The notes beneath the pieces were generated by a model. It ran no database searches. It was given only the letters and a program-made list of their open reading frames with translations, and was not told where the DNA came from. From the IMG/VR virus record IMGVR_UViG_3300018069_000018, positions 1 to 40,794 of that record: 40,794 nt of DNA; one strand, 5' to 3'. Numbering within the stretch: the first letter of the stretch is position 1; every line of letters begins with the position of its first letter. The stretch is from a virus. This document shows positions 31,219-40,794 of the stretch, piece after piece. The translations under genes and the position numbers were made by a program.

Positions 31219-31263
31219 TTAACCAACAACGCGTTCGAATGGTGTCCCGAGTGTTGGTTAAGG
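31219..31263. promoter_or_regulatory. Inverted-repeat site A (TTAACCAACA-N23-TGTTGGTTAA)
   Basis: Right arm AGTGTTGGTTAAGG is identical to both arms of site B at 34539-34584. Confidence 0.6.
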
Positions 31264-31837: not shown

Positions 31838-32240
31838 CTGAACTCACCCGCTCGTTGCCCTCGGAGGCGGTTACCGTGATCGACACGTCAACATCGACAG
31901 CGACACCGTAGTCGCGCTGGACGTCCGCCACAGCAGTCTCAACGATGCTCGATAGCTGGTATTCACTCCCGGCTGCTTTGTAGAGAGCGGCAGCCAGCCC
32001 GATCAGTTCCTCTCGCTGGAGGCTGTCGAGCGTCTCATCGAGGGGGAGGTCGGTGGTGGTTGTGAGGAGAGCGAGATCCAGGACCCCGTTGTGGAGTCGG
32101 TCTTGGATTGTGGAGCGGCGTTTGGAGATCGCGCCGCGGCTGTTCTGCTCGCGGTACGTCTCCGGGTCGCGGAGGTAGTCGCGGTCGCTTGGTGAGAAGA
32201 TCCCGCGGCCGCGCTCCTCAGACGAGTTCTCACCCGGCAT
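31827..32240 (-). CDS. Hypothetical regulatory protein (137 aa)
   Basis: RGIFSPSDRDYL..RSTIQDRLHNGVLDLALL, a pattern recalled from haloarchaeal mobile-element genes beside repressors. Confidence 0.7.
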   Translation of the reverse strand: MPGENSSEERGRGIFSPSDRDYLRDPETYREQNSRGAISKRRSTIQDRLHNGVLDLALLTTTTDLPLDETLDSLQREELIGLAAALYKAAGSEYQLSSIVETAVADVQRDYGVAVDVDVSITVTASEGNERVSSDVE

Positions 32241-32454
32241 GTTTGTCCTCCTCGCGAGGGTCGTCGACCAGCTCGTAGAGGCCGGTTGTAATCTTCTTGA
32301 CCCAGCCAGCCGCGATGAGCTGGTTGAGCGCGTAATTTACTTGTTGGTTGTTGAGGCCGGTGCGTTCTTTCAGGTAGTGAGGCGTGGCTCGCCCTTCCTT
32401 GAGGACGTCGAGGACGTATTCTTCGTTCTCGCTGGGGGTGTAGTCCTCATTCAT
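32230..32454 (-). CDS. PhiH1 repressor-like winged-helix protein (74 aa; alternative GTG 32478)
   Basis: EEYVLDVLKEGRATPHYLKERTG..VNYALNQL..GWVKKITTGLYELVDDP. Confidence 0.8.
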   Translation of the reverse strand: MNEDYTPSENEEYVLDVLKEGRATPHYLKERTGLNNQQVNYALNQLIAAGWVKKITTGLYELVDDPREEDKHAG

Positions 32455-32671
32455 GCGTTCTTGTAGTCGGGTTTTCACAGTACCACCTTGACGGTTACTA
32501 CAATCTCTTGTATGATAGTTCTTCCGACCGACTATACAATAGTCTATTATACAGCCTTTAGAAAACACTAAGTGGGTGGCGCCATAACTACTGAATGTAC
32601 CCGAGGGACGCCACACGCGAGAGAAAGTGGCCCGGCGTCACACCGCCGGACCTCGGGTTCGGAGAGAACCC
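32455..32671. promoter_or_regulatory. Divergent AT-rich control region (lysis/lysogeny switch)
   Basis: Lies between the leftward repressor and rightward early genes; TACAA/TTGTA repeats and an AATAG-T-CTATT palindrome. Confidence 0.6.
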
Positions 32672-34538: not shown

Positions 34539-34584
34539 CCTTAACCAACACTTGGTCCGATAGCGACAGCAGTGTTGGTTAAGG
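34539..34584. promoter_or_regulatory. Inverted-repeat site B (perfect 14-bp arms, 18-nt spacer)
   Basis: CCTTAACCAACACT-N18-AGTGTTGGTTAAGG, upstream of the cdc6 TATA box. Confidence 0.7.
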
Positions 34585-34611
34585 CCGAGGGGTCGGAAGT
34601 CACCCGGGGTG

Positions 34612-34617
34612 TTTTAT
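34612..34617 (+). promoter_or_regulatory. TATA box of cdc6-like gene
   Basis: TTTTAT about 24 nt upstream of ATG 34641. Confidence 0.6.
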
Positions 34618-34640
34618 CCCGAGGGCGTGCAGCCAGAACC

Positions 34641-35687
34641 ATGATAACGCGGCCTCGGGTCTTCGAGGACGACCACCTCCCTGACAGCCTCCTCCACAGG
34701 CACACGGAGAAACGGGAGCTTGCCCGCGGGTTCGAACCGATCACTCGCGGCAACCCCAGCGAGTACGTCCTCCTATCTGGCCCCAGTGGGGTCGGGAAGA
34801 CTGCGCTCGCAAAGAGTGGTCTCGAGGATGTCAGCGACTTCGGGCAGGTGGATACTGGGTTCGTGCGTGCGATGGGGAAACGCACCGGGTCGATTCTCCG
34901 CGACATCATCCAAGCGCATCCTGCGGACGTGGGCGTGTCGCATTCGACGCCCGTTGAGGATCTTCCTGAGCTGCTCGCGGAGGCAACCCAGCGGCCGTAT
35001 GTGGTGGTTCTCGACGAGGCCGACGACCTCCCCAGCACGGACGTCCTTGATGCACTGTCGCGGTGTCGGTGGGTGTCTGTCGTCGTGGTTACGCACGACC
35101 AAACCCGGTTCGAGTCCCGGACGAGCGCGCCGTTCTCGATTACGCTGCAGGTCGATCGTTTTACCAGCGCGGAGCTGGCGGACATCCTCGAGGCGCGCGC
35201 CCAAGAGGGCTTGCAGGCGGGTGTGGTGTCTCGTGGTCAATTGGAGTCGATTGCGGATACGGTGGCGGGCGTCGCGCGCTGGGGCATCCAATCGTTGCGG
35301 GCGGCCGCCGAAATTGCTGATGAACGCGGGCATCCGACCATCGAACCGGGGGACGTCCAGGACTGCTACCAGCGCGCCCGCGGCCGGATTCGCGCATCGA
35401 ATCTCGAATCGCTGCCAGTGTATCATCACGTCTTGTATGAGATCGTGCGTCGGGCGGGTGCGTGCAGTGGGGGTGAGGTCCACGACCGCTATGACCGCGT
35501 TGCTGATGAGGTGTACGAGGGACTGCCGGTCGCGCCGGTGGGGAAACGCAGCCGGCGGAATAAGCTCGCGAAGCTCGCCGCGTACGACCTCATCGAGATT
35601 ATCGAGGAGCGCAGCCAGCGCCAGTACCGAGTCCTCGATGAGGAGTTGTCGTCCACGGTCGTGGAGCTGCCGTCGGTGCGTGTATAG
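34641..35687 (+). CDS. cdc6: Cdc6/Orc1-like AAA+ ATPase with C-terminal wHTH
   Basis: MITRPRVFEDDHLP..; Walker A GPSGVGKT, Walker B VVVLDEAD; YTxxELxxIL-like FTSAELADIL..R. Confidence 0.9.
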   Translation: MITRPRVFEDDHLPDSLLHRHTEKRELARGFEPITRGNPSEYVLLSGPSGVGKTALAKSGLEDVSDFGQVDTGFVRAMGKRTGSILRDIIQAHPADVGVSHSTPVEDLPELLAEATQRPYVVVLDEADDLPSTDVLDALSRCRWVSVVVVTHDQTRFESRTSAPFSITLQVDRFTSAELADILEARAQEGLQAGVVSRGQLESIADTVAGVARWGIQSLRAAAEIADERGHPTIEPGDVQDCYQRARGRIRASNLESLPVYHHVLYEIVRRAGACSGGEVHDRYDRVADEVYEGLPVAPVGKRSRRNKLAKLAAYDLIEIIEERSQRQYRVLDEELSSTVVELPSVRV

Positions 35688-35816: not shown

Positions 35817-35915
35817 TCAACAAATGGGATATAACACTCCCAAGTCGCGCCATGAAGTGAGGTAAGTGACGAAGTAGTTCCCCGAAGTGGCGTGGGGCTG
35901 GGAGATTTCCAGCAT
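35817..35915 (-). CDS. Possible 32-aa peptide, shares leader and MLEIS start with 36004-36141
   Basis: MLEISQPHATSGNYFVTYLTSWRDLGVLYPIC; 17-bp identity with the second copy. Confidence 0.3.
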   Translation of the reverse strand: MLEISQPHATSGNYFVTYLTSWRDLGVLYPIC

Positions 35916-36003
35916 ATATCCTCATCGTCCTTTCAATACCAAAGAATAGCCCTGGGTAGGGCCGTAGGTGGCCTCGACGTGTGTTCGACGTCGAGGGAGT
36001 GGT

Positions 36004-36141
36004 CTACCGCTGCAGGTAGACGTACACCCCGAAGCCCAGGATGACATACGTCAGAGCCCAGAGTGGGTGTCCGAGAGCCAGCGCGCCAAGCGAGGCGCCG
36101 ATGCCTGCGGTTGGGGCTGGCAGATGAGAGATTTCCAGCAT
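36004..36141 (-). CDS. Small hydrophobic membrane peptide (45 aa)
   Basis: MLEISHLPAPTAGIGASLGALALGHPLWALTYVILGFGVYVYLQR; two short hydrophobic segments. Confidence 0.55.
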   Translation of the reverse strand: MLEISHLPAPTAGIGASLGALALGHPLWALTYVILGFGVYVYLQR

Positions 36142-36313
36142 ATAGCGTCGTCCTTCGCCACCCCCGAGTGGGTGACTCGCGCCGTTTCTGACGCTAGCCG
36201 ACATGTGAGGATAGCAGCCTAAAAAGCCCCGAGGTCCACGTGCACGTGTAACTCCAGGAGGCCTCGGAAACCACCCGCCTTTTTACCGTGGTTTGGGCCG
36301 TCGGGTCTCGTGT

Positions 36314-36538
36314 ATGCCGACGCTCGAAACACGCACTGGCGACGCACAGATCACTGAACTCCGGCAAGTCGAGGGCGGCGGCCGCGTCGCCGTCGAACTC
36401 GGCGACCGCAAGTGGCACGTCGACATCCTCGAGCAAGATGGCGTGCAGGTCGTCGCCTCCTGGAAGGGTGGCGAGCTCGCCGATGTCGAACTGCCTGCGG
36501 AGGTGGCAGAACGTCTCGAAGAGTACGCAGGGGTCTAA
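36314..36538 (+). CDS. Hypothetical protein (74 aa)
   Basis: TTTTTA box about 27 nt upstream; acidic. Confidence 0.7.
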   Translation: MPTLETRTGDAQITELRQVEGGGRVAVELGDRKWHVDILEQDGVQVVASWKGGELADVELPAEVAERLEEYAGV

Positions 36539-36546
36539 GGATGGGG

Positions 36547-36711
36547 TTAGCTACTCGCCGCCGCCGGGTTCAGATTTCCCTCGGCATCCTCATCCTCCTC
36601 AAGGAGGCGTTTGATGACATCCTCGAAGCTATCGCCAGGTTCCTTCCGGCGGTTCAGGCGCTTCCACGTGTCGTCGGTGACGCGGATGTGCTTGTCCGCT
36701 TTGCGAGCCAT
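36547..36711 (-). CDS. Ribbon-helix-helix / antitoxin-like DNA-binding protein, paralog 1 (54 aa), not in ORF track
   Basis: MARKADKHIRVTDDTWKRLNRRKEPGDSFEDVIKRLLEE; TTTATA box about 25 nt upstream on the minus strand. Confidence 0.82.
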   Translation of the reverse strand: MARKADKHIRVTDDTWKRLNRRKEPGDSFEDVIKRLLEEDEDAEGNLNPAAASS

Positions 36712-36745
36712 ATCCGAGGTATGGACGGCCCCCGGTATAAACTAT

Positions 36746-36821
36746 TACCCACAGTCGACGTGGTTTACCACGTTAACCATGAAAACGAGAGTAACCTATT
36801 TGTATCGTGCGCGTGTGGGTA
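36746..36821. promoter_or_regulatory. Symmetric operator between the two RHH genes
   Basis: Central ACGTGGT-TT-ACCACGT (36758-36773) flanked by inverted TACCCACA (36746-36753) and TGTGGGTA (36814-36821). Confidence 0.65.
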
Positions 36822-36828
36822 CTGACAG

Positions 36829-36954
36829 ATGGCAGAGACTCAAGAAACACACGCGGTCAAGGTCACCGAGGAGACGTGGCGCGACCTAAACTCGCGTAAA
36901 CACCCCGGAGACACGTTCGATGACGTGATTACGCGACTCCTCGACGAGAATTAG
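36829..36954 (+). CDS. Ribbon-helix-helix / antitoxin-like DNA-binding protein, paralog 2 (41 aa), not in ORF track
   Basis: MAETQETHAVKVTEETWRDLNSRKHPGDTFDDVITRLLDEN aligns without gaps to paralog 1. Confidence 0.82.
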   Translation: MAETQETHAVKVTEETWRDLNSRKHPGDTFDDVITRLLDEN

Positions 36955-37059
36955 ACCGCCCTGTCGCACACCCGCGCTCCACCCTACCAAGAATCGAGCG
37001 CGGGCGTGCGGGGGTGGTCCCGGAATAGCCCAGTCAAACGAGCAACCGATTCCGAGACC

Positions 37060-37245
37060 ATGCAAAGCAACGAACGCACCCGATTAGAAAGCACCGACAC
37101 GAATAGTAAGTCAGCGACTACCACCGAAACCGCGCCCTACGTCTGCACCCGAGATGGCTGCTTCGCCGCGTTCGGCACCACCAGTGCTCGCGACGACCAC
37201 GAGGACAGCGACCACGACGACGAAGAAGCGGAGGTGGCTGCCTGA
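37060..37245 (+). CDS. C2H2-type zinc-finger microprotein (61 aa)
   Basis: YVCTRDGCFAAFGTTSARDDHEDSDH. Confidence 0.7.
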   Translation: MQSNERTRLESTDTNSKSATTTETAPYVCTRDGCFAAFGTTSARDDHEDSDHDDEEAEVAA

Positions 37246-37397
37246 TGTCGGGGGAGAGTGAGGCGTTCCGCGATCAGCTCAACTCGAGCCTGGAGTCCGC
37301 CATCGCCGGCGACCACGACCTCGACGACATCCAGCAAGCCCTCGAAGACGCACACCAGCGCGTCCAGGAAATCCAACGCATCCGGAGTGATGCCTGA
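37245..37397 (+). CDS. Small helical protein (50 aa), not in ORF track
   Basis: TGATG coupling at both ends; MSGESEAFRDQL.. Confidence 0.65.
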   Translation: MSGESEAFRDQLNSSLESAIAGDHDLDDIQQALEDAHQRVQEIQRIRSDA

Positions 37398-37705
37398 TGG
37401 CGGACGCTGCTGGAGACACGGCAGTCAGTCCTCGCTACGGTCGCGGGCAGCTACTGATGATGACAAACACCGGCTGCTACTGGCACGTCGTCAGCCGGTT
37501 CAGAAACATCGACACTGGCGAGGTCTGGTACCGGGTTGCGAACCCGACGCATTCGCAGGACCTCCGCTACCGCGAGGAGGATGTCCCGGCGGCGCTCGAA
37601 GACGTTGGCGTCAGCCTGCCGGTCGGCATCAAGCCCGCCTCCGTGTTCGGTGAGCGCGGCGACGACGGCATTCTTCGCGGGAAGAACGAGGGGGTGAGCG
37701 CGTGA
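37397..37705 (+). CDS. Hypothetical protein (102 aa)
   Basis: Coupled ORF. Confidence 0.65.
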   Translation: MADAAGDTAVSPRYGRGQLLMMTNTGCYWHVVSRFRNIDTGEVWYRVANPTHSQDLRYREEDVPAALEDVGVSLPVGIKPASVFGERGDDGILRGKNEGVSA

Positions 37706-38277
37706 TGTCGGCGAGGACTGCCTCACCGCCGACGATCTACGATGTCGTCGAACTGCCCGCAGCGGAGAAGGGCGGCGAGTGCCAGATGCAAGCCGGACCG
37801 CGCGATGCTCACCACCCGTGCGGGAACCGGGTTGAGTTCGTGTTCGTGTACGCGGCCAGCGAACGCCCCTACGAAGACGACCGACGGAACATGCTCGCCT
37901 GCCGCGAGTGCATCCCCCGCATCTCCCCGGAGGTACAAGCACAACTCCGCGACCAGCCCAGCCGCGTCAACCACGGCACCGTCCCGGAAGCACTCGACGA
38001 GGCGACGCTCACACAGGAGTACGCCGAGCTCAACGAACGCCGGTTCTCCCGCACCGCCAGCGAAGCCGACCGGGAACGCCGTATCGCGGTCTGGAACGAA
38101 CTGCTCGAGCGCACCGACGTCGAGCAACCGGAGTGCCCCGAGTGTGGCAGCCAGCGCTGGGGGTTCACCGACCACACCGAGTGCATGAGCTGTGGCTACG
38201 GGCCGACCGACCCGGAGCTCCTCGGCGAGATTCAGAGTGCGTGGGACCAGGTCATGGCCGCTGGAGGTGACGCCTGA
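37705..38277 (+). CDS. Zinc-finger protein (190 aa)
   Basis: C..HPC..CREC and CPECG..CMSCG motifs. Confidence 0.75.
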   Translation: MSARTASPPTIYDVVELPAAEKGGECQMQAGPRDAHHPCGNRVEFVFVYAASERPYEDDRRNMLACRECIPRISPEVQAQLRDQPSRVNHGTVPEALDEATLTQEYAELNERRFSRTASEADRERRIAVWNELLERTDVEQPECPECGSQRWGFTDHTECMSCGYGPTDPELLGEIQSAWDQVMAAGGDA

Positions 38278-38534
38278 TGGCGGCCACCGACGAGGACCTC
38301 ATCAAAGCCTGCCCCGAATGTGGCGAAGCCGCAGTCCGCGCTCGCCGCCCCAAGAAACCATGCTCGCGAGCCACCGGGAGTGACGCTCGGTACCGCTGCA
38401 GTAGCTGTCAAGCACGCTTCGACGACCCCCTCGAGCGCCCCTCACAGAGCAACACCGGCCCCGGTACCGGGTCGGCGTTGACCGCGAAGCTCGCCGCGAT
38501 GGACCCTGAGGATGTCGGAGGTGGGTCCGCGTGA
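38277..38534 (+). CDS. Zinc-ribbon protein (85 aa)
   Basis: GGAGGTGA RBS; CPECG..YRCSSC. Confidence 0.75.
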   Translation: MAATDEDLIKACPECGEAAVRARRPKKPCSRATGSDARYRCSSCQARFDDPLERPSQSNTGPGTGSALTAKLAAMDPEDVGGGSA

Positions 38535-38893
38535 GCACGCACGAATGCGACGCCTGCGGCGACACCTTCGAGACGCTCACCAGGCTGCGCCTCCACGAGA
38601 AAGACGACTGCCCGCAGCGGAAACAGTACGCCGACATCGACCCCGACGCTCCCGACGTCGGCGACCAAACCGCGGAAGAACTACTCTCGTGCCGGGGCTG
38701 CGGTCGCGAGAACCCCCACGCTGACTTCGAGTTCTCGACCGACTACGACGGCAGCGACTTCCACTACATCGTCGAGTTCGACTGCCAGCACTGTGGGTTC
38801 GAGAACGAAAACCGGGCGGTGATGACTGGCGTCGACGCCAGCGACCTCGACGACCTCCCGCCCCACCTCCAACCCCAGGAGGGGCAGCCATGA
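38531..38893 (+). CDS. Zinc-finger protein (120 aa)
   Basis: HECDACGDTFETLTRLRLHE plus CRGC..CQHC. Confidence 0.75.
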   Translation: MSTHECDACGDTFETLTRLRLHEKDDCPQRKQYADIDPDAPDVGDQTAEELLSCRGCGRENPHADFEFSTDYDGSDFHYIVEFDCQHCGFENENRAVMTGVDASDLDDLPPHLQPQEGQP

Positions 38894-39225
38894 GCGCGAC
38901 CTACCAACCCGGCATCCACACCAGCAGGCACCTCGAAGAGGACCGCTGGCCGCGCCGCGCAACCCTCACACGGGACGTCGACCCCGAAACCGCATGGTGC
39001 CGCGCCCACCCCCTCCAGCTCCCCGAAGGCCACACCACAGGCGCGTACCCCAGGCTCCCCAAGAACGACGAGGCACGCATCGACCCCGAAACACGGACCG
39101 TCATCTTCCGCCGGAACAGCGTGCTCGTGACGTGCTTCGACCTCGACACCGTCACGAGCTATCACGGCCACGCCGTCCGCGCCGCCGTCCAAGAGCAGTA
39201 CCCGGAGCTGATCAACGATGAGTAG
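38890..39225 (+). CDS. Hypothetical protein (111 aa)
   Basis: ATGA overlaps at both ends. Confidence 0.7.
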   Translation: MSATYQPGIHTSRHLEEDRWPRRATLTRDVDPETAWCRAHPLQLPEGHTTGAYPRLPKNDEARIDPETRTVIFRRNSVLVTCFDLDTVTSYHGHAVRAAVQEQYPELINDE

Positions 39226-39427
39226 TACCAACGCTCGCCACCGCGAGTTCGACGACCTCAGCGACCAGGAGGACCGCATCGCAGCTGCCCTCGAGGACGC
39301 TCGCGATGACCTCGAAGCCGTCGCGGACAGCGACACCGCGTTCAGCGACAACGCCCAAGCCGCACTCGACTGGCTCGACACCCACACCAACGACGACGAA
39401 ACCGGAGGTGAGGCCAGTGGCGAGTGA
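39218..39427 (+). CDS. Hypothetical protein (69 aa), convergent with the integrase
   Basis: Ends GGEASGE, like the 5234-6175 ORF. Confidence 0.7.
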   Translation: MSSTNARHREFDDLSDQEDRIAAALEDARDDLEAVADSDTAFSDNAQAALDWLDTHTNDDETGGEASGE

Positions 39428-39428
39428 G
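39403..39428 (+). repeat. 26-bp direct repeat, copy 2
   Basis: Identical to 6151-6176; abuts the integrase stop codon. Confidence 0.9.
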
Positions 39429-40658
39429 TTATTCGTCGGTCTCGAACGCGACGCGAACCCCGGGAACCTCTTCGGTGAGGTCCTTCAGCGCCATCACGGA
39501 CTCGGCGAGCTCGGGATTGTCTGCGATCGCCTGCATCATATCCTGATCCTGGGACGCCGCTTCAGCTGCGGCCTCCGAGGACAACGCCTGCCCACACCAC
39601 ATACACCGCGACTCACGCTGGGGTGTCTCCCGGTCGCACCGCGGACACGTCACAGGCGCGAACTCCGCGCTGTCGTCGTCCTCGGAGACTTCGAGCCCCA
39701 TCAGTTCGGCGTACTCACTGCCGACGTCGTCGTCGAAGATAGCGGTGTAGCGGGCGACGGCATCCGACCCGTGCTTTCGTCCTTGGCGGCGTTCGATGTG
39801 GCGGGCGTTCATCCCCTGCCGGCACAGCCACGCCAGATTCGACTTCCGGAACGCCGTCGGCGTGACGTCCTTCTCGACGTCGGCACGGTTGGCGGGCCGC
39901 TTGAACATATCGAGGTAGGAGTTATAGGAGAGTCGGCTGGGGGACTGCAGGCTCGTCCACAGATAGGTGTCGTCGCCGCTGCCGGGATGGTCGCTGAGCC
40001 AGCGCTGGACGTGCGGCGTCGACGGGATCAAGTCGACGGAGCGCTGCCCGGTCTTCCCGTCGACCTGGACGACGAGACCGTGGTCGGAGTCACTGATGTC
40101 GCCCAAGGTGAGGTCGTAGAGTTCGCCGCCGCGGAGCCCGGCGTCGAACTGCAGCGCGATCGCAGCTTCGTCGCGCGTGTTCCGACACTCCTCGAGCATC
40201 GGTTCGATGTCAACCTCCCAGCGCAGCATCGCGCCCGGGGCGGGGCTCGGGTCGTAGTCATTGGGAAGCGTGGAGTTCACCCAGTCAATCGACGGCGGTG
40301 GGTCGTCTCCGTTCTCGTCGGTGACACGCCGGCCGAAGACGCGGAGCGCGACGCGGTAGTTCTGGTTAGTCTCGGGGGTCTCGCCAAGGTCGTAGGTGTC
40401 GTGAATCCAGCGGACGGCCTCCTCGGTGGCGTCGCGATCCTCAAGCGTCTCGGCAAGTTCCGGTGGTGCGTTTTCGCTGATGCGGACGCAGTGCCGGAGG
40501 AGCTTCTCGTGGCGATGCCAGCCGTAGGTTTCCCGGAGGAGTTTGAGGCGGTCGCTGAACTCGATGAGGATGTCCTGGTCGCGCTGGGTGGGGATGTCGC
40601 GGGTCCCGTCTTGGATGCGTTCGCGGAGATTGTCGACGCGTTCCTGGGGCGTGGACAT
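39429..40658 (-). CDS. int: Tyrosine integrase, SNJ2-like haloarchaeal type, with C-terminal zinc ribbon
   Basis: DAGLRGGEL (R), DGKTGQRSV (K), TPTAFRKS (R), ARY (Y); C-terminal CPRC..CMWC; adjacent to att. Confidence 0.92.
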   Translation of the reverse strand: MSTPQERVDNLRERIQDGTRDIPTQRDQDILIEFSDRLKLLRETYGWHRHEKLLRHCVRISENAPPELAETLEDRDATEEAVRWIHDTYDLGETPETNQNYRVALRVFGRRVTDENGDDPPPSIDWVNSTLPNDYDPSPAPGAMLRWEVDIEPMLEECRNTRDEAAIALQFDAGLRGGELYDLTLGDISDSDHGLVVQVDGKTGQRSVDLIPSTPHVQRWLSDHPGSGDDTYLWTSLQSPSRLSYNSYLDMFKRPANRADVEKDVTPTAFRKSNLAWLCRQGMNARHIERRQGRKHGSDAVARYTAIFDDDVGSEYAELMGLEVSEDDDSAEFAPVTCPRCDRETPQRESRCMWCGQALSSEAAAEAASQDQDMMQAIADNPELAESVMALKDLTEEVPGVRVAFETDE

Positions 40659-40665
40659 ACCCTTT

Positions 40666-40689
40666 CCTTTAACCGTTGGCTGTTAAGGG
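40666..40689. promoter_or_regulatory. Imperfect palindrome holding opposed TATA-like boxes next to att
   Basis: CCTTTAACCG-TTGG-CTGTTAAGGG; the minus-strand box is about 24 nt from the int ATG. Confidence 0.5.
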
Positions 40690-40695
40690 TTTGGC

Positions 40696-40714
40696 TCAAA
40701 TCCCTTTACCGGCT
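40696..40714 (+). repeat. att core, right junction (19 bp)
   Basis: Duplicate of the tRNA-Thr 3' end at 81-99. Confidence 0.95.
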
Positions 40715-40794
40715 CTACGACGCGGGCTCGAAGCCTGCATCCCGTTCTCTGATTTCTACGCGCCGAGCGTGAGCGCCGTCTAACCGGGGCGCTC

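What the first reader, a model, noticed from the sequence alone, without database searches (positions are those of the whole stretch)
36547..36954. Head-to-head pair of paralogous RHH genes around a symmetric operator: a second, minimal genetic switch
Seen: two tiny ORFs missed by the ORF track, on opposite strands 117 bp apart, align without gaps (HIRVTDDTWKRLNRRKEPGDSFEDVIKRLLEE versus HAVKVTEETWRDLNSRKHPGDTFDDVITRLLDE) but differ in the N-terminal beta-strand. The gap holds a perfect ACGTGGT-TT-ACCACGT palindrome flanked by inverted TACCCACA arms, with TATA-like boxes for both directions. No PIN or other toxin gene is adjacent. Known: RHH proteins read DNA through that beta-strand and act as dimers. 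Inference: a CI/Cro-like toggle made from one duplicated fold, with possible heterodimers as a third state. It controls the zinc-finger operon that runs into int, in addition to the PhiH1-type switch.
Basis: partly seen in the sequence, partly recalled or inferred. Interest (0 to 1): 0.8.

Follow-up and report, generated by a model that had tools for sequence, protein, structure and literature searches.

The report
Back-to-back small repressor gene pair
A provirus of a salt-loving archaeon carries two tiny related DNA-binding genes facing away from each other across a repeat-filled control region, most likely a second lysogeny/early-gene switch of a kind that recurs in many such viruses.

Summary
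Two ORFs (54 aa, minus strand; 41 aa, plus strand) lie head to head, 117 bp apart. They are 54% identical, both match Pfam VAPB_antitox/DUF7557, and both show purifying selection.

The pair is not a local duplication. The same head-to-head layout recurs in 18 of 29 metagenome loci, in 6 of the 30 best genome loci, and in the isolated viruses ChaoS9 and HJTV-4. Subfamilies are combined in different ways.

One member always stands alone. The other sits at the head of a same-strand gene row.

It is a tandem array of 9-bp units (GTTWACCAY, core GTTAAC) that runs into the TATA box of the 41-aa gene.

Upstream lie an Orc1/Cdc6 gene and a homologue of SNJ2 Orf7, which converges on the 54-aa gene. This is the topology of the published SNJ2 Orc1-Orf7-Orf4 induction module, with the small protein in the repressor's place.

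No toxin gene is present.

Best reading: a repressor/first-early-gene pair, the archaeal analogue of phage P22 Mnt/Arc. Binding, bistability and heterodimers are untested.

The parts
36547..36711 (-). 'alpha': lone 54-aa RHH-type regulator gene (H-I-R-V-T strand; C-terminal tail EGNLNPAAASS). Proposed maintenance repressor.
   Evidence: Orthologues with the same strand motif occur in 9 loci, each with a divergent partner.
36829..36954 (+). 'beta': 41-aa RHH-type regulator gene, at the head of the rightward gene row. Proposed Arc/Cro-like early regulator.
   Evidence: It groups with L003, L047-L049 and L007 members at 99/97 support.
36712..36828 (.). 117-bp divergent control region.
36736..36741 (-). 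TATA box (TTTATA on the minus strand) about 28 nt before the alpha ATG. This predicts a leaderless mRNA.
   Evidence: Read. An AT-rich box lies at the same place in relatives.
36745..36753 (+). TTACCCACA box directly upstream of the alpha TATA. Its inverted copy at 36814-36821 lies between the beta TATA and the beta ATG.
   Evidence: The left box is conserved in L003, L067 and L068, and weakly in L070. The right copy is not conserved.
36758..36773 (.).
   Evidence: It is not conserved as a palindrome in L003. L073 has the near-palindrome ACGTGGTTAACCAAGT.
36754..36798 (+). Tandem array of five 9-bp units: GTCGACGTG GTTTACCAC GTTAACCAT GAAAACGAG AGTAACCTA. The strong units are at 36763-36780. 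Proposed operator of alpha; the last unit overlaps the beta TATA.
36796..36804 (+). TATA-like box CTATTTGTA about 30 nt before the beta ATG.
   Evidence: Read. AACCTATTT is conserved in L003 and L067.
36954..37019 (+). G+C-rich hairpin / inverted repeat directly after the beta stop codon. Possible attenuator or binding site.
   Evidence: z -5.5, 0 of 200 shuffles fold as well. L003 has a hairpin at the same place (z -2.7).
37060..39427 (+). Row of seven small same-strand genes downstream of beta, several with zinc-finger/zinc-ribbon motifs and of unknown function. The row converges on int.
36314..36538 (+). 74-aa ORF convergent on alpha. Homologue of SNJ2 Orf7, the antagonist of the SNJ2 repressor.
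   Evidence: phrog_15874.
36282..36290 (+). Single operator-like unit TTTACCGTG at the putative TATA (TTTTTA) of the Orf7-like ORF.
   Evidence: 3 matches to TTWACCRYG in 40.8 kb, the other two inside the array.
34572..35687 (+). Orc1/Cdc6 AAA+ gene upstream of the module.
39429..40658 (-). Tyrosine integrase, on the minus strand.
   Evidence: PF00589, 3.3e-14. The overlapping + ORF 39306-40772 has no Pfam hit.

Best explanation
The two ORFs are a divergently transcribed pair of small ribbon-helix-helix-type transcription regulators. They form the second regulatory hub of a temperate tailed haloarchaeal virus.

Alpha (54 aa) is a lone gene. It most likely acts as a repressor of the maintenance type. 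Dimers would bind side by side to a tandem array of 9-bp units (GTTWACCAY, each with a palindromic GTTAAC core). The array fills the space between the two TATA boxes and overlaps the rightward one. Binding would shut off beta and the zinc-finger gene row behind it.

Beta (41 aa) is the first product of the rightward transcript. It most likely feeds back on the same region, as Arc or Cro do.

The Orc1/Cdc6 gene and the Orf7-like gene just upstream converge on alpha. They probably supply the induction signal, as Orc1 and Orf7 do against the wHTH repressor Orf4 in pleolipovirus SNJ2. Here an RHH protein has replaced the wHTH repressor.

Shown:
- the genes are real and under purifying selection;
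- family membership at sequence level;
- the recurring layout;
- the conserved repeat array;
- the Orf7 homology and the shared topology.

Inferred:
- DNA binding;
- which protein binds which site;
- the sign of regulation;
- the induction input.
For: Gene reality
- Coding-type GC pattern in both frames.
- pS 0.65-0.78 against pN 0.16-0.26 in comparisons with L003 and L067.

Family
- PF02697/PF24434 hits.
- All 30 of 30 aligned members hit both families at E<=1.
- COG1753/DUF217 was predicted to have the RHH fold by Makarova et al. 2009 (PMC2701414; passages seen).

Recurrence of the head-to-head layout
- L003.
- L007.
- 6 of the 30 best genome loci, from a search in which 178 of 401 haloarchaeal genomes had a match.
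- 18 of 29 metagenome loci.
- ChaoS9_350/355 and HJTV-4 gp54 with an unannotated ORF.

Lone gene against head-of-row gene
- ORF maps of 9 loci.
- In L007, L047, L048 and L049 the head gene overlaps the next gene, and a tyrosine integrase lies in the same row.

Operator
- GTTWAC occurs 18 times in the nine alpha-type control regions, against 0.60 in shuffles (0 of 2000 reach it).
- Nine pairs lie exactly 9 bp apart, against 0.001 expected.
- TTAACCA is present in all 11 alpha-type locus rows and in 1 of 14 other pair loci.
- Other subfamily combinations carry other repeats, such as ATAGAAC.

SNJ2 slot
- The window's 74-aa ORF against Harhisp1_085: 33% identity over 75 aa, E 1.7e-12.
- L050_81 against SNJ2 gp7: 34% over 67 aa, E 6e-8.
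- A profile built without gp7 finds gp7 at 29.0 bits.
- SNJ2 gene map and the published roles of Orf4, Orf7 and Orf8 (PMC10123103; passages and section 16 seen).
- Of the 30 best Orf7-like loci, 12 have a convergent Orf4-like wHTH gene and 1 has the RHH pair.
Against: - No binding, expression or fold data.
- Beta is below Pfam's cut-offs.
- The direct match of the window's 74-aa ORF to SNJ2 gp7 is weak (E 0.05). The link rests on intermediates and on position.
- 16 of the 30 Orf7-like loci show neither regulator. Many of these look chromosomal.
- The array is assigned to alpha only by co-occurrence. The nine loci are related to each other, so they are not independent.
- A strong hairpin lies between beta and the next gene. 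'First gene of an operon' is therefore less secure here than in L007 and L047-L049.
- The tree has only 57 columns and many unresolved forks.
Confidence: 0.6

Rival explanations
1. Orphan or trans-acting antitoxins. The two proteins are VapB-type antitoxins that neutralise PIN or RelE toxins encoded elsewhere in the host (anti-addiction or defence-related), not switch components.
For: The best Pfam family is VAPB_antitox. One source names a 69%-identical relative 'predicted CopG family antitoxin'. COG1753 is often linked to PIN genes in archaea (PMC2701414, passages seen).
Against: - No PIN or ParE/RelE match in the whole 40.8-kb record, and none in the neighbours.
- The proteins are 41-54 aa and lack the C-terminal extension. 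That extension is present in the 70-83-aa single-copy relatives with the ..LAGFG.. motif. In VapB proteins it is the part that covers the toxin (PMC13488343, passages seen).
- The constant layout of lone gene against head-of-row gene, with TATA boxes and repeat arrays, argues for promoter control.
Confidence: 0.07
2. The repeat array and the TTAACCA sites are Orc1/Cdc6 (origin-type) binding sites. The small proteins play only a minor or different role, for example as copy-number controllers of the CopG type.
For: - TTAACCA also forms two inverted pairs elsewhere in the window, one directly before the orc1 start at 34541/34576.
- Orc1 genes lie near the pair in the window, L049, L050, L051, ChaoS9 and HJTV-4.
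- In ChaoS9 the gene row behind the DUF7557 gene reaches repH.
Against: - The array is found with alpha-type genes in L003 and L045, where no Orc1 match lies within the mapped window of up to about 4.5 kb each side.
- It lies exactly between two TATA boxes.
- Tandem short palindromic units are a known RHH operator style (MetJ met-boxes and omega heptads; both recalled, not checked in any call).
- TTWACCRYG units are confined to this module.
Confidence: 0.1
3. Recombination-directionality or integrase-operon regulators. The pair mainly sets integrase/excision expression (Xis/Cox-like), not a lysogeny switch.
For: - In L007, L047, L048 and L049 the head-of-row RHH gene lies in one row with a tyrosine integrase. 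In L007 its stop overlaps the int start.
- In Humcor2 a single homologue faces an int operon.
- In SNJ2 the equivalent repressor controls PInt (PMC10123103).
Against: - In the window int is on the opposite strand and converges on the gene row.
- L003, L045, L050 and L051 show no integrase match in the row behind the head gene within the mapped stretch.
Confidence: 0.12

Closest known systems
Phage P22 immI region: Mnt and Arc repressors (mnt divergent from arc-ant)
   Same: - Two small homologous RHH repressors are transcribed back to back across shared operators.
- One is a lone gene with an extra C-terminal part. The other is the first gene of the opposite transcript.
- It is a second immunity region besides the main repressor locus.

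What I saw in print: that immI holds the two repressors mnt and arc controlling ant (PMC2629481, passages). The divergent orientation, the RHH homology of Arc and Mnt, and Mnt's C-terminal tetramerisation part are recalled.
   Different: - No detectable sequence relation: no Arc-family Pfam hit for any of the 30 members at E<=1.
- Archaeal TATA promoters.
- The operator is a tandem 9-bp array, not two palindromic operators.
- No antirepressor was recognised behind beta. The putative antagonist (Orf7-like) lies on the other side, convergent on alpha.
SNJ2 Orf4-Orf7-Orf8 lysogeny-induction module (Pleolipoviridae; PMC10123103)
   Same: Same gene order and orientations: Orc1, then the Orf7 homologue, convergent on a lone repressor that faces a divergent gene row.
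   Different: - The repressor slot holds an RHH protein instead of a phiH1-type wHTH. The wHTH is what 12 of the 30 best Orf7-like loci have.
- The divergent gene row starts with a second RHH gene.
- In this window that row does not contain int.
Archaeal VapB antitoxins of COG1753 / PF02697
   Same: The N-terminal DNA-binding domain is homologous.
   Different: No toxin partner and no C-terminal toxin-binding region. The genes occur as divergent pairs in virus control regions.
Lambda CI/Cro
   Same: A lone repressor gene faces the first gene of an early transcript across a shared multi-site operator. A hairpin follows the first early gene, as tR1 follows cro (recalled).
   Different: Different fold, different operator logic (tandem array), and no evidence of mutual repression.
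RHH regulators of crenarchaeal viruses (SSV1 F55, SIRV1 SvtR, AFV6 AvtR)
   Same: Small RHH proteins that control viral promoters. The names are recalled. The review PMC5569661 was seen only in search listings.
   Different: Those are single genes, not head-to-head pairs of relatives. Their hosts and promoter contexts differ.

Membership tests
RHH-type COG1753 / PF02697 / DUF7557 family | Significant match to the family profile | tested here: met
   - Alpha: 41.4 bits against a cut-off of 27.9.
- Beta: 25.6 bits, below the cut-off, but 54% identical to alpha.
- 30 of 30 aligned relatives hit both families at E<=1.
RHH-type COG1753 / PF02697 / DUF7557 family | Beta-strand / helix / G-x-S/T turn / helix fold forming a dimer | not testable with these tools
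The sequence shows an alternating strand (HIRVT), then ..TWKRLN.., PGDS/PGDT, then F.DVI.RLL. The RHH assignment of COG1753 comes from PMC2701414.
Type II VapB antitoxin | Adjacent PIN (or RelE) toxin gene in one operon | tested here: not met
   No PF01850 or PF05016 match in the record. The neighbours have no such domain.
Type II VapB antitoxin | C-terminal toxin-binding region after the DNA-binding domain | tested here: not met
   The window proteins are 41 and 54 aa. The single-copy relatives with the LAGFG-type extension are 70-83 aa.
P22 immI Mnt/Arc-type pair | Two related RHH repressor genes, divergent, with the operator between them overlapping the promoters | tested here: met
   (sequence level only).
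P22 immI Mnt/Arc-type pair | Sequence homology to Arc/Mnt | tested here: not met
   No Arc-family hit among the Pfam matches of the 30 members at E<=1. It is an analogue, not a member.
P22 immI Mnt/Arc-type pair | Controlled transcript encodes an antirepressor | tested here: inconclusive
   The seven downstream genes have no informative matches.
SNJ2-type Orc1-Orf7-repressor module | Orc1/Cdc6 gene followed by an Orf7 homologue convergent on the repressor | tested here: met
SNJ2-type Orc1-Orf7-repressor module | Repressor is an Orf4-like (phiH1-type) wHTH protein | tested here: not met
   The slot holds the RHH protein alpha. Among the 30 best Orf7-like loci, 12 have the wHTH and 1 has the RHH pair.
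SNJ2-type Orc1-Orf7-repressor module | Repressed divergent operon contains the integrase | tested here: not met
   int lies at 39429-40658 on the minus strand. The feature is met in L007 and L047-L049.
Bistable CI/Cro-type toggle | Mutual repression giving two stable states | not testable with these tools
   Needs reporter and knock-out experiments.

The most novel reading that the evidence does not exclude
Haloarchaeal temperate viruses build their immunity/induction hubs from exchangeable half-modules. One half is a lone RHH repressor with its own tandem-repeat operator. The other is an unrelated-specificity RHH gene at the head of the early transcript.

The conserved C-terminal tail EGN(P)...(T/A)AD is the receiver or degron through which the virus-borne Orc1/Orf7 DNA-damage pathway inactivates the repressor. 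The tail is found on alpha-type proteins. It is also found on the otherwise dissimilar proteins ChaoS9_350 and HJTV-4 gp54, which I read as RHH. HJTV-4 gp54 has only weak RHH-family Pfam hits and ChaoS9_350 has none. If this holds, it would be a portable induction tag for archaeal repressors.
Probability: 0.2. Interest if true: 0.75.

Novelty: new variant of a known kind. Interest (0 to 1): 0.6.

Why it matters
Lysogeny control in archaeal viruses is known in detail for very few systems: phiH1/phiCh1, SSV1, SNJ1 and SNJ2.

This module is widespread. The family profile matches in 178 of 401 sampled haloarchaeal genomes, and head-to-head pairs occur in 6 of the 30 best genome loci and 18 of 29 metagenome loci. 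It is also present, but unrecognised, in cultured viruses: ChaoS9_350 and _355 are listed as 'uncharacterized', and the HJTV-4 partner ORF is not annotated. It can therefore be tested at the bench.

It ties the only mechanistically dissected haloarchaeal induction pathway (Orc1, then Orf7, acting against a repressor) to tailed viruses and to a different repressor fold. It also offers a very small, modular set of repressor-operator pairs for haloarchaeal genetics.

Tried and rejected
- **Local duplication rejected.** In the tree, alpha groups with L003 and L045 orthologues (without strong support), and beta groups with L003, L047-L049 and L007 members (99/97). Alpha-type proteins are on average 72% identical to each other. 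Their partners are 55% identical to each other, and each alpha is 52% identical to its own partner (first 42 residues; three alpha starts were chosen too far upstream by the script).
- **Palindrome as the operator rejected.** In L003 the left arm carries two changes, and a different palindrome uses the same central half-site.
- **SNJ2 Orf2/Orf3 integration accessory proteins rejected.** They are a coiled-coil protein and a MarR-type wHTH, not RHH (PMC5861418, passages seen).
- **Searches that gave nothing useful:**
  - PHROGs and NCBIfam for the two proteins.
  - ESM Atlas, which returned only the same families.
  - PDB sequence profile search.
  - The operator pattern in viral and genome collections, which returned only L003's contig plus chance bacterial hits.
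  - The bacterial-type promoter/terminator scan, which is not suited to archaea.
- **No RNA holder listed** for the stretch.
- **Not found in print.** 'DUF7557' gave 0 papers. Searches for RHH with haloarchaeal provirus/virus, lysogeny and repressor listed no paper on head-to-head RHH pairs in haloarchaeal viruses. I judged this from titles and abstract starts only. The ChaoS9 paper's table lists ChaoS9_350 and _355 as uncharacterized (PMC6471424, passages seen).
- **Supplements were closed.** The SNJ2 paper's supplementary Orf7 alignment and its provirus list could bear on the Orf7 family claim.
- **Rows dropped:**
  - L001, L002, L004 and L008 (duplicates of the window or of other loci) were left out of the six-frame scans.
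  - L046 (a second copy in G277) was left out of the tree.
  - L072 and L075 (near-copies of L071) were left out of the nine-locus operator set.
Full report
**What the window is**

The genome search reports the window as one whole virus record of 40,794 bases. It carries these genes:
- a large terminase, a portal and a prohead protease;
- a tRNA-Thr at its left end;
- a MarR-type wHTH gene at 32230-32616;
- an Orc1/Cdc6 gene at 34572-35687;
- a tyrosine integrase on the minus strand at 39429-40658 (PF00589, 3.3e-14).

The overlapping plus-strand ORF 39306-40772 has no Pfam match. The record is G+C-rich (0.58-0.72). Its relatives are haloarchaeal viruses and proviruses.

**The observation**

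- ORF 36547-36711 (-) encodes 54 aa ('alpha'). ORF 36829-36954 (+) encodes 41 aa ('beta'). The ATGs are 117 bp apart.
- BLASTP gives 22/41 identities with one gap in the N-terminal strand.
- Both match PF02697 VAPB_antitox and PF24434 DUF7557. Alpha is above the curated cut-off and beta just below.
- The 7+7 palindrome and the 8-bp inverted arms are as described.
- A palindrome of that quality arises in 246 of 5000 shuffles of the spacer.
- TACCCACA has its only two copies of the 40.8 kb here, against 0.29 expected.
- Both frames show the codon-position G+C pattern of the window's long genes.
- Against the orthologues in L003 and L067, synonymous differences are near saturation (pS 0.65-0.78). 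Non-synonymous ones are few (pN 0.16-0.26). Both are genes under purifying selection.

**Relatives and layout**

A word-seeded protein search found only four close relatives of alpha. Pattern and profile searches found many more.

The head-to-head pair is present in:
- an IMG/VR contig (L003);
- a Halobacteriales MAG (L007);
- 6 of the 30 best loci of a profile search, in which 178 of 401 haloarchaeal genomes had a match at E<=1e-5;
- 18 of 29 metagenome loci. Some of those are near-copies of each other, and several of the 11 single-hit loci sit at contig ends.

In every pair the two hits are divergent, with about 90-145 bp between the start codons.

Single-copy relatives fall into two kinds:
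- short ones of 40-50 aa, such as the one in pleolipovirus Humcor2, which faces a zinc-ribbon/CxxC/integrase operon;
- 70-83-aa proteins with a ..LAGFG.. extension, the usual VapB build.

**Not a local duplication**

In a tree of 47 family members (57 columns, many open forks), beta groups at 99/97 support with members of L003, L007, L047, L048 and L049 and two singles. Alpha groups with L003 and L045 members, without strong support. A third group ('TTVSVS') supplies the partner in L007, L047-L049 and L045.

The pairs are therefore alpha+beta, alpha+gamma and beta+gamma. The metagenome loci add further partner types for alpha.

Alpha-type proteins are on average 72% identical to each other. 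Their partners are 55% identical to each other. Each alpha is 52% identical to its own partner.

**Constant architecture**

ORF maps of nine pair loci were selected by a GC3-GC2 heuristic. They show one member as a lone gene that meets a convergent gene. The other member lies at the head of a row of same-strand genes.
- In L007, L047, L048 and L049 the head gene overlaps the next gene, and the row contains a tyrosine integrase.
- In the window the row is seven small genes (37060-39427), several with zinc-finger/ribbon motifs and none with an informative match. The row ends two bases from the stop codon of the oppositely oriented int.
- Between beta and the next gene lies a strong G+C-rich hairpin (36954-37019; z -5.5, 0 of 200 shuffles). 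L003 has a counterpart (z -2.7). Read-through may therefore be regulated.

**The operator**

The window/L003 alignment conserves GTTTACCACGTT.ACC.TG, but not the left arm of the palindrome.

All nine alpha-type control regions hold runs of two to six phased 9-bp units. At the 4-of-6 core threshold the run sizes are 2, 2, 3, 3, 4, 4, 5, 5 and 6. The consensus is GTTWACCAY, and the core GTTAAC is itself a palindrome.
- Window: GTCGACGTG GTTTACCAC GTTAACCAT GAAAACGAG AGTAACCTA (36754-36798).
- L069: GTTAACGGC GTTAACTTG GTTAACCTC GGTAACTCA GGTAATTCA.
- GTTWAC occurs 18 times in these nine regions, against 0.60 in shuffles (0 of 2000 reach it). Nine pairs lie exactly 9 bp apart, against 0.001 expected.

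The loci are related to each other, so these counts overstate independence.

The array begins a few bases inside the alpha TATA box and ends on the partner's TATA box.

TTAACCA occurs in all 11 alpha-type locus rows and in 1 of 14 other pair loci. The beta+gamma loci instead carry ATAGAAC repeats at 9-11-bp spacing. A third group carries TGCATAC-type boxes.

The repeat type thus changes with the protein types present. Alpha is the constant partner of the GTTAAC array. That is the basis, by inference only, for assigning the array to alpha.

Tandem short palindromic units bound by rows of RHH dimers are known from MetJ and omega (recalled, not checked here).

**Link to the SNJ2 induction module**

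The 74-aa ORF 36314-36538 (+) converges on alpha.
- It is 33% identical over 75 aa to Harhisp1_085 (E 1.7e-12 in a seven-sequence database).
- It is weakly similar to an 81-aa ORF at the same position in L050.
- That L050 ORF and Harhisp1_085 match SNJ2 gp7 (Orf7) at 34% over 67 aa (E 6e-8) and 33% over 58 aa (E 6e-7).
- A profile built without gp7 finds gp7 at 29.0 bits.
- The direct match between the window ORF and gp7 is weak (E 0.05).

In SNJ2 the gene order is Orc1 (gp8), then Orf7 (gp7), convergent on the wHTH repressor Orf4 (gp4, with a HicBA pair in between). Orf4 faces the orf3-orf2-int operon.

The paper shows three things (PMC10123103; passages and section 16 seen):
- Orf4 represses PInt.
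- Orc1 responds to mitomycin-C damage and turns on orf7.
- Orf7 counteracts Orf4.

The window has the same topology: Orc1, Orf7-like, then alpha convergent on it, with alpha in Orf4's place. Harhisp1 has the wHTH version.

Of the 30 best Orf7-like loci (from 67 of 401 genomes with a match), 12 have a convergent Orf4-like wHTH gene and one (G253 = L050) has the RHH pair. Most of the rest look chromosomal.

A single operator-like unit (TTTACCGTG, 36282-36290) sits on the putative TATA of the Orf7-like ORF. TTWACCRYG occurs only three times in the window, and the other two are in the array. This hints that alpha also holds down its own antagonist. It is a lead only.

**Cultured viruses**

The tailed viruses with the closest Orc1 proteins show the same hub.
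- In ChaoS9, Orc1 is followed by ChaoS9_350 (minus strand, 75 aa, no Pfam hit) facing ChaoS9_355 (51 aa, DUF7557 at 5.8e-6). ChaoS9_355 heads a gene row that reaches repH.
- In HJTV-4, gp54 has weak hits to many RHH families. It faces an unannotated ORF that matches PF02697 at 1.6e-5.
- ChaoS9_350, HJTV-4 gp54 and the lone members of the alpha type and of a third group share a C-terminal tail EGN(P)...(T/A)AD. The window's alpha ends EGNLNPAAASS.
- The ChaoS9 paper lists ChaoS9_350 and _355 only as uncharacterized.
- BJ1 has the wHTH/PadR version of the same layout.

These viruses and the window also have an earlier wHTH-headed region upstream of Orc1. 'Second switch' therefore describes a conserved plan.

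**Antitoxin reading**

- No PIN or ParE/RelE match exists in the record.
- The proteins lack the C-terminal part that VapB proteins use against the toxin (PMC13488343, passages).
- COG1753 is described as an archaeal RHH antitoxin family often next to PIN genes (PMC2701414).

The family name therefore explains the fold, not the role here.

**Verdict**

The best-supported reading is a repressor/first-early-gene pair built from two RHH-type proteins. It is an analogue of P22 Mnt/Arc: not a homologue, and the detailed features of that system are recalled. It is placed in the repressor slot of an SNJ2-like Orc1/Orf7 induction circuit.

DNA binding, the sign of regulation, bistability, heterodimers and the role of the tail are untested.

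An earlier follow-up of this scan on another genome (e1-3285147) described a divergent RHH pair with shared 8-bp boxes and made the same P22 comparison. I had noted that comparison before seeing it. That note is not independent evidence.

Noticed in passing
window 36547-36590 (C-terminus of alpha); L003 4001-4165; L045 5881-6075; L050 5940-6122; L051 6214-6393; L054 5144-5371; L057 4574-4768: A conserved C-terminal tail EGN(P)...(T/A)AD ends the lone regulator in many loci. It also ends ChaoS9_350 and HJTV-4 gp54, whose N-terminal domains are of a different type (weak RHH-family hits for gp54, no Pfam hit for ChaoS9_350). A regex over all held loci found it only on these regulators. Its function is unknown; it may be an interaction or degradation tag.
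   Followed up: partly
window 31219-31261 and 34541-34582; L003 4198-4240; L034 2248-2289: Inverted pairs TTAACCAACA...TGTTGGTTAA with about 36-bp start-to-start spacing. One lies directly before the orc1 start. TTAACCA occurs 6 times in the window against 0.51 expected. The core is the same as that of the alpha operator unit, so these could be remote alpha sites or Orc1 sites.
   Followed up: partly
window 35893-35926 and 36112-36152: Two copies of GGGGCTGG.AGAT..GAGATTTCCAGCATATA lie 226 bp apart between orc1 and the Orf7-like ORF. They resemble origin-recognition boxes (recalled). In SNJ2 the Orc1-responsive promoter of orf7 lies in the equivalent spacer (PMC10123103).
   Followed up: no
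window 36954-37019: Very stable hairpin right after the beta stop codon (-53.5 kcal/mol for the 116 nt folded, z -5.5). It has a counterpart in L003 and is not followed by a T-run. It may be an attenuator or a protein-binding palindrome.
   Followed up: partly
L057 4792-5028 (+), Haloarchaeal virus HJTV-4: An ORF that is not annotated in the record matches PF02697 (1.6e-5) and DUF7557. It lies divergent from gp54.
   Followed up: yes
L003 4246-4512 (-); L007 3122-3364 (-); L047 5671-5928 (+); L014 1479-1715 (-); L055 5817-6020 (+): A small zinc-ribbon family (..DRWRF.CP.GH..W.....H.WC..C..) repeatedly sits convergent on the lone regulator, or in the int operon, in the place where the window has the Orf7-like ORF.
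   Followed up: no
window 39306-40772 (+) versus 39429-40658 (-): The long plus-strand ORF is a shadow of the integrase gene, which lies on the minus strand.
   Followed up: yes
L045 and L046 (G277 C1 about 573.4-573.8 kb and 634.2-634.6 kb): The same pair occurs twice in one genome, about 61 kb apart, with identical scores. This may be two related proviruses or a large duplication.
   Followed up: no
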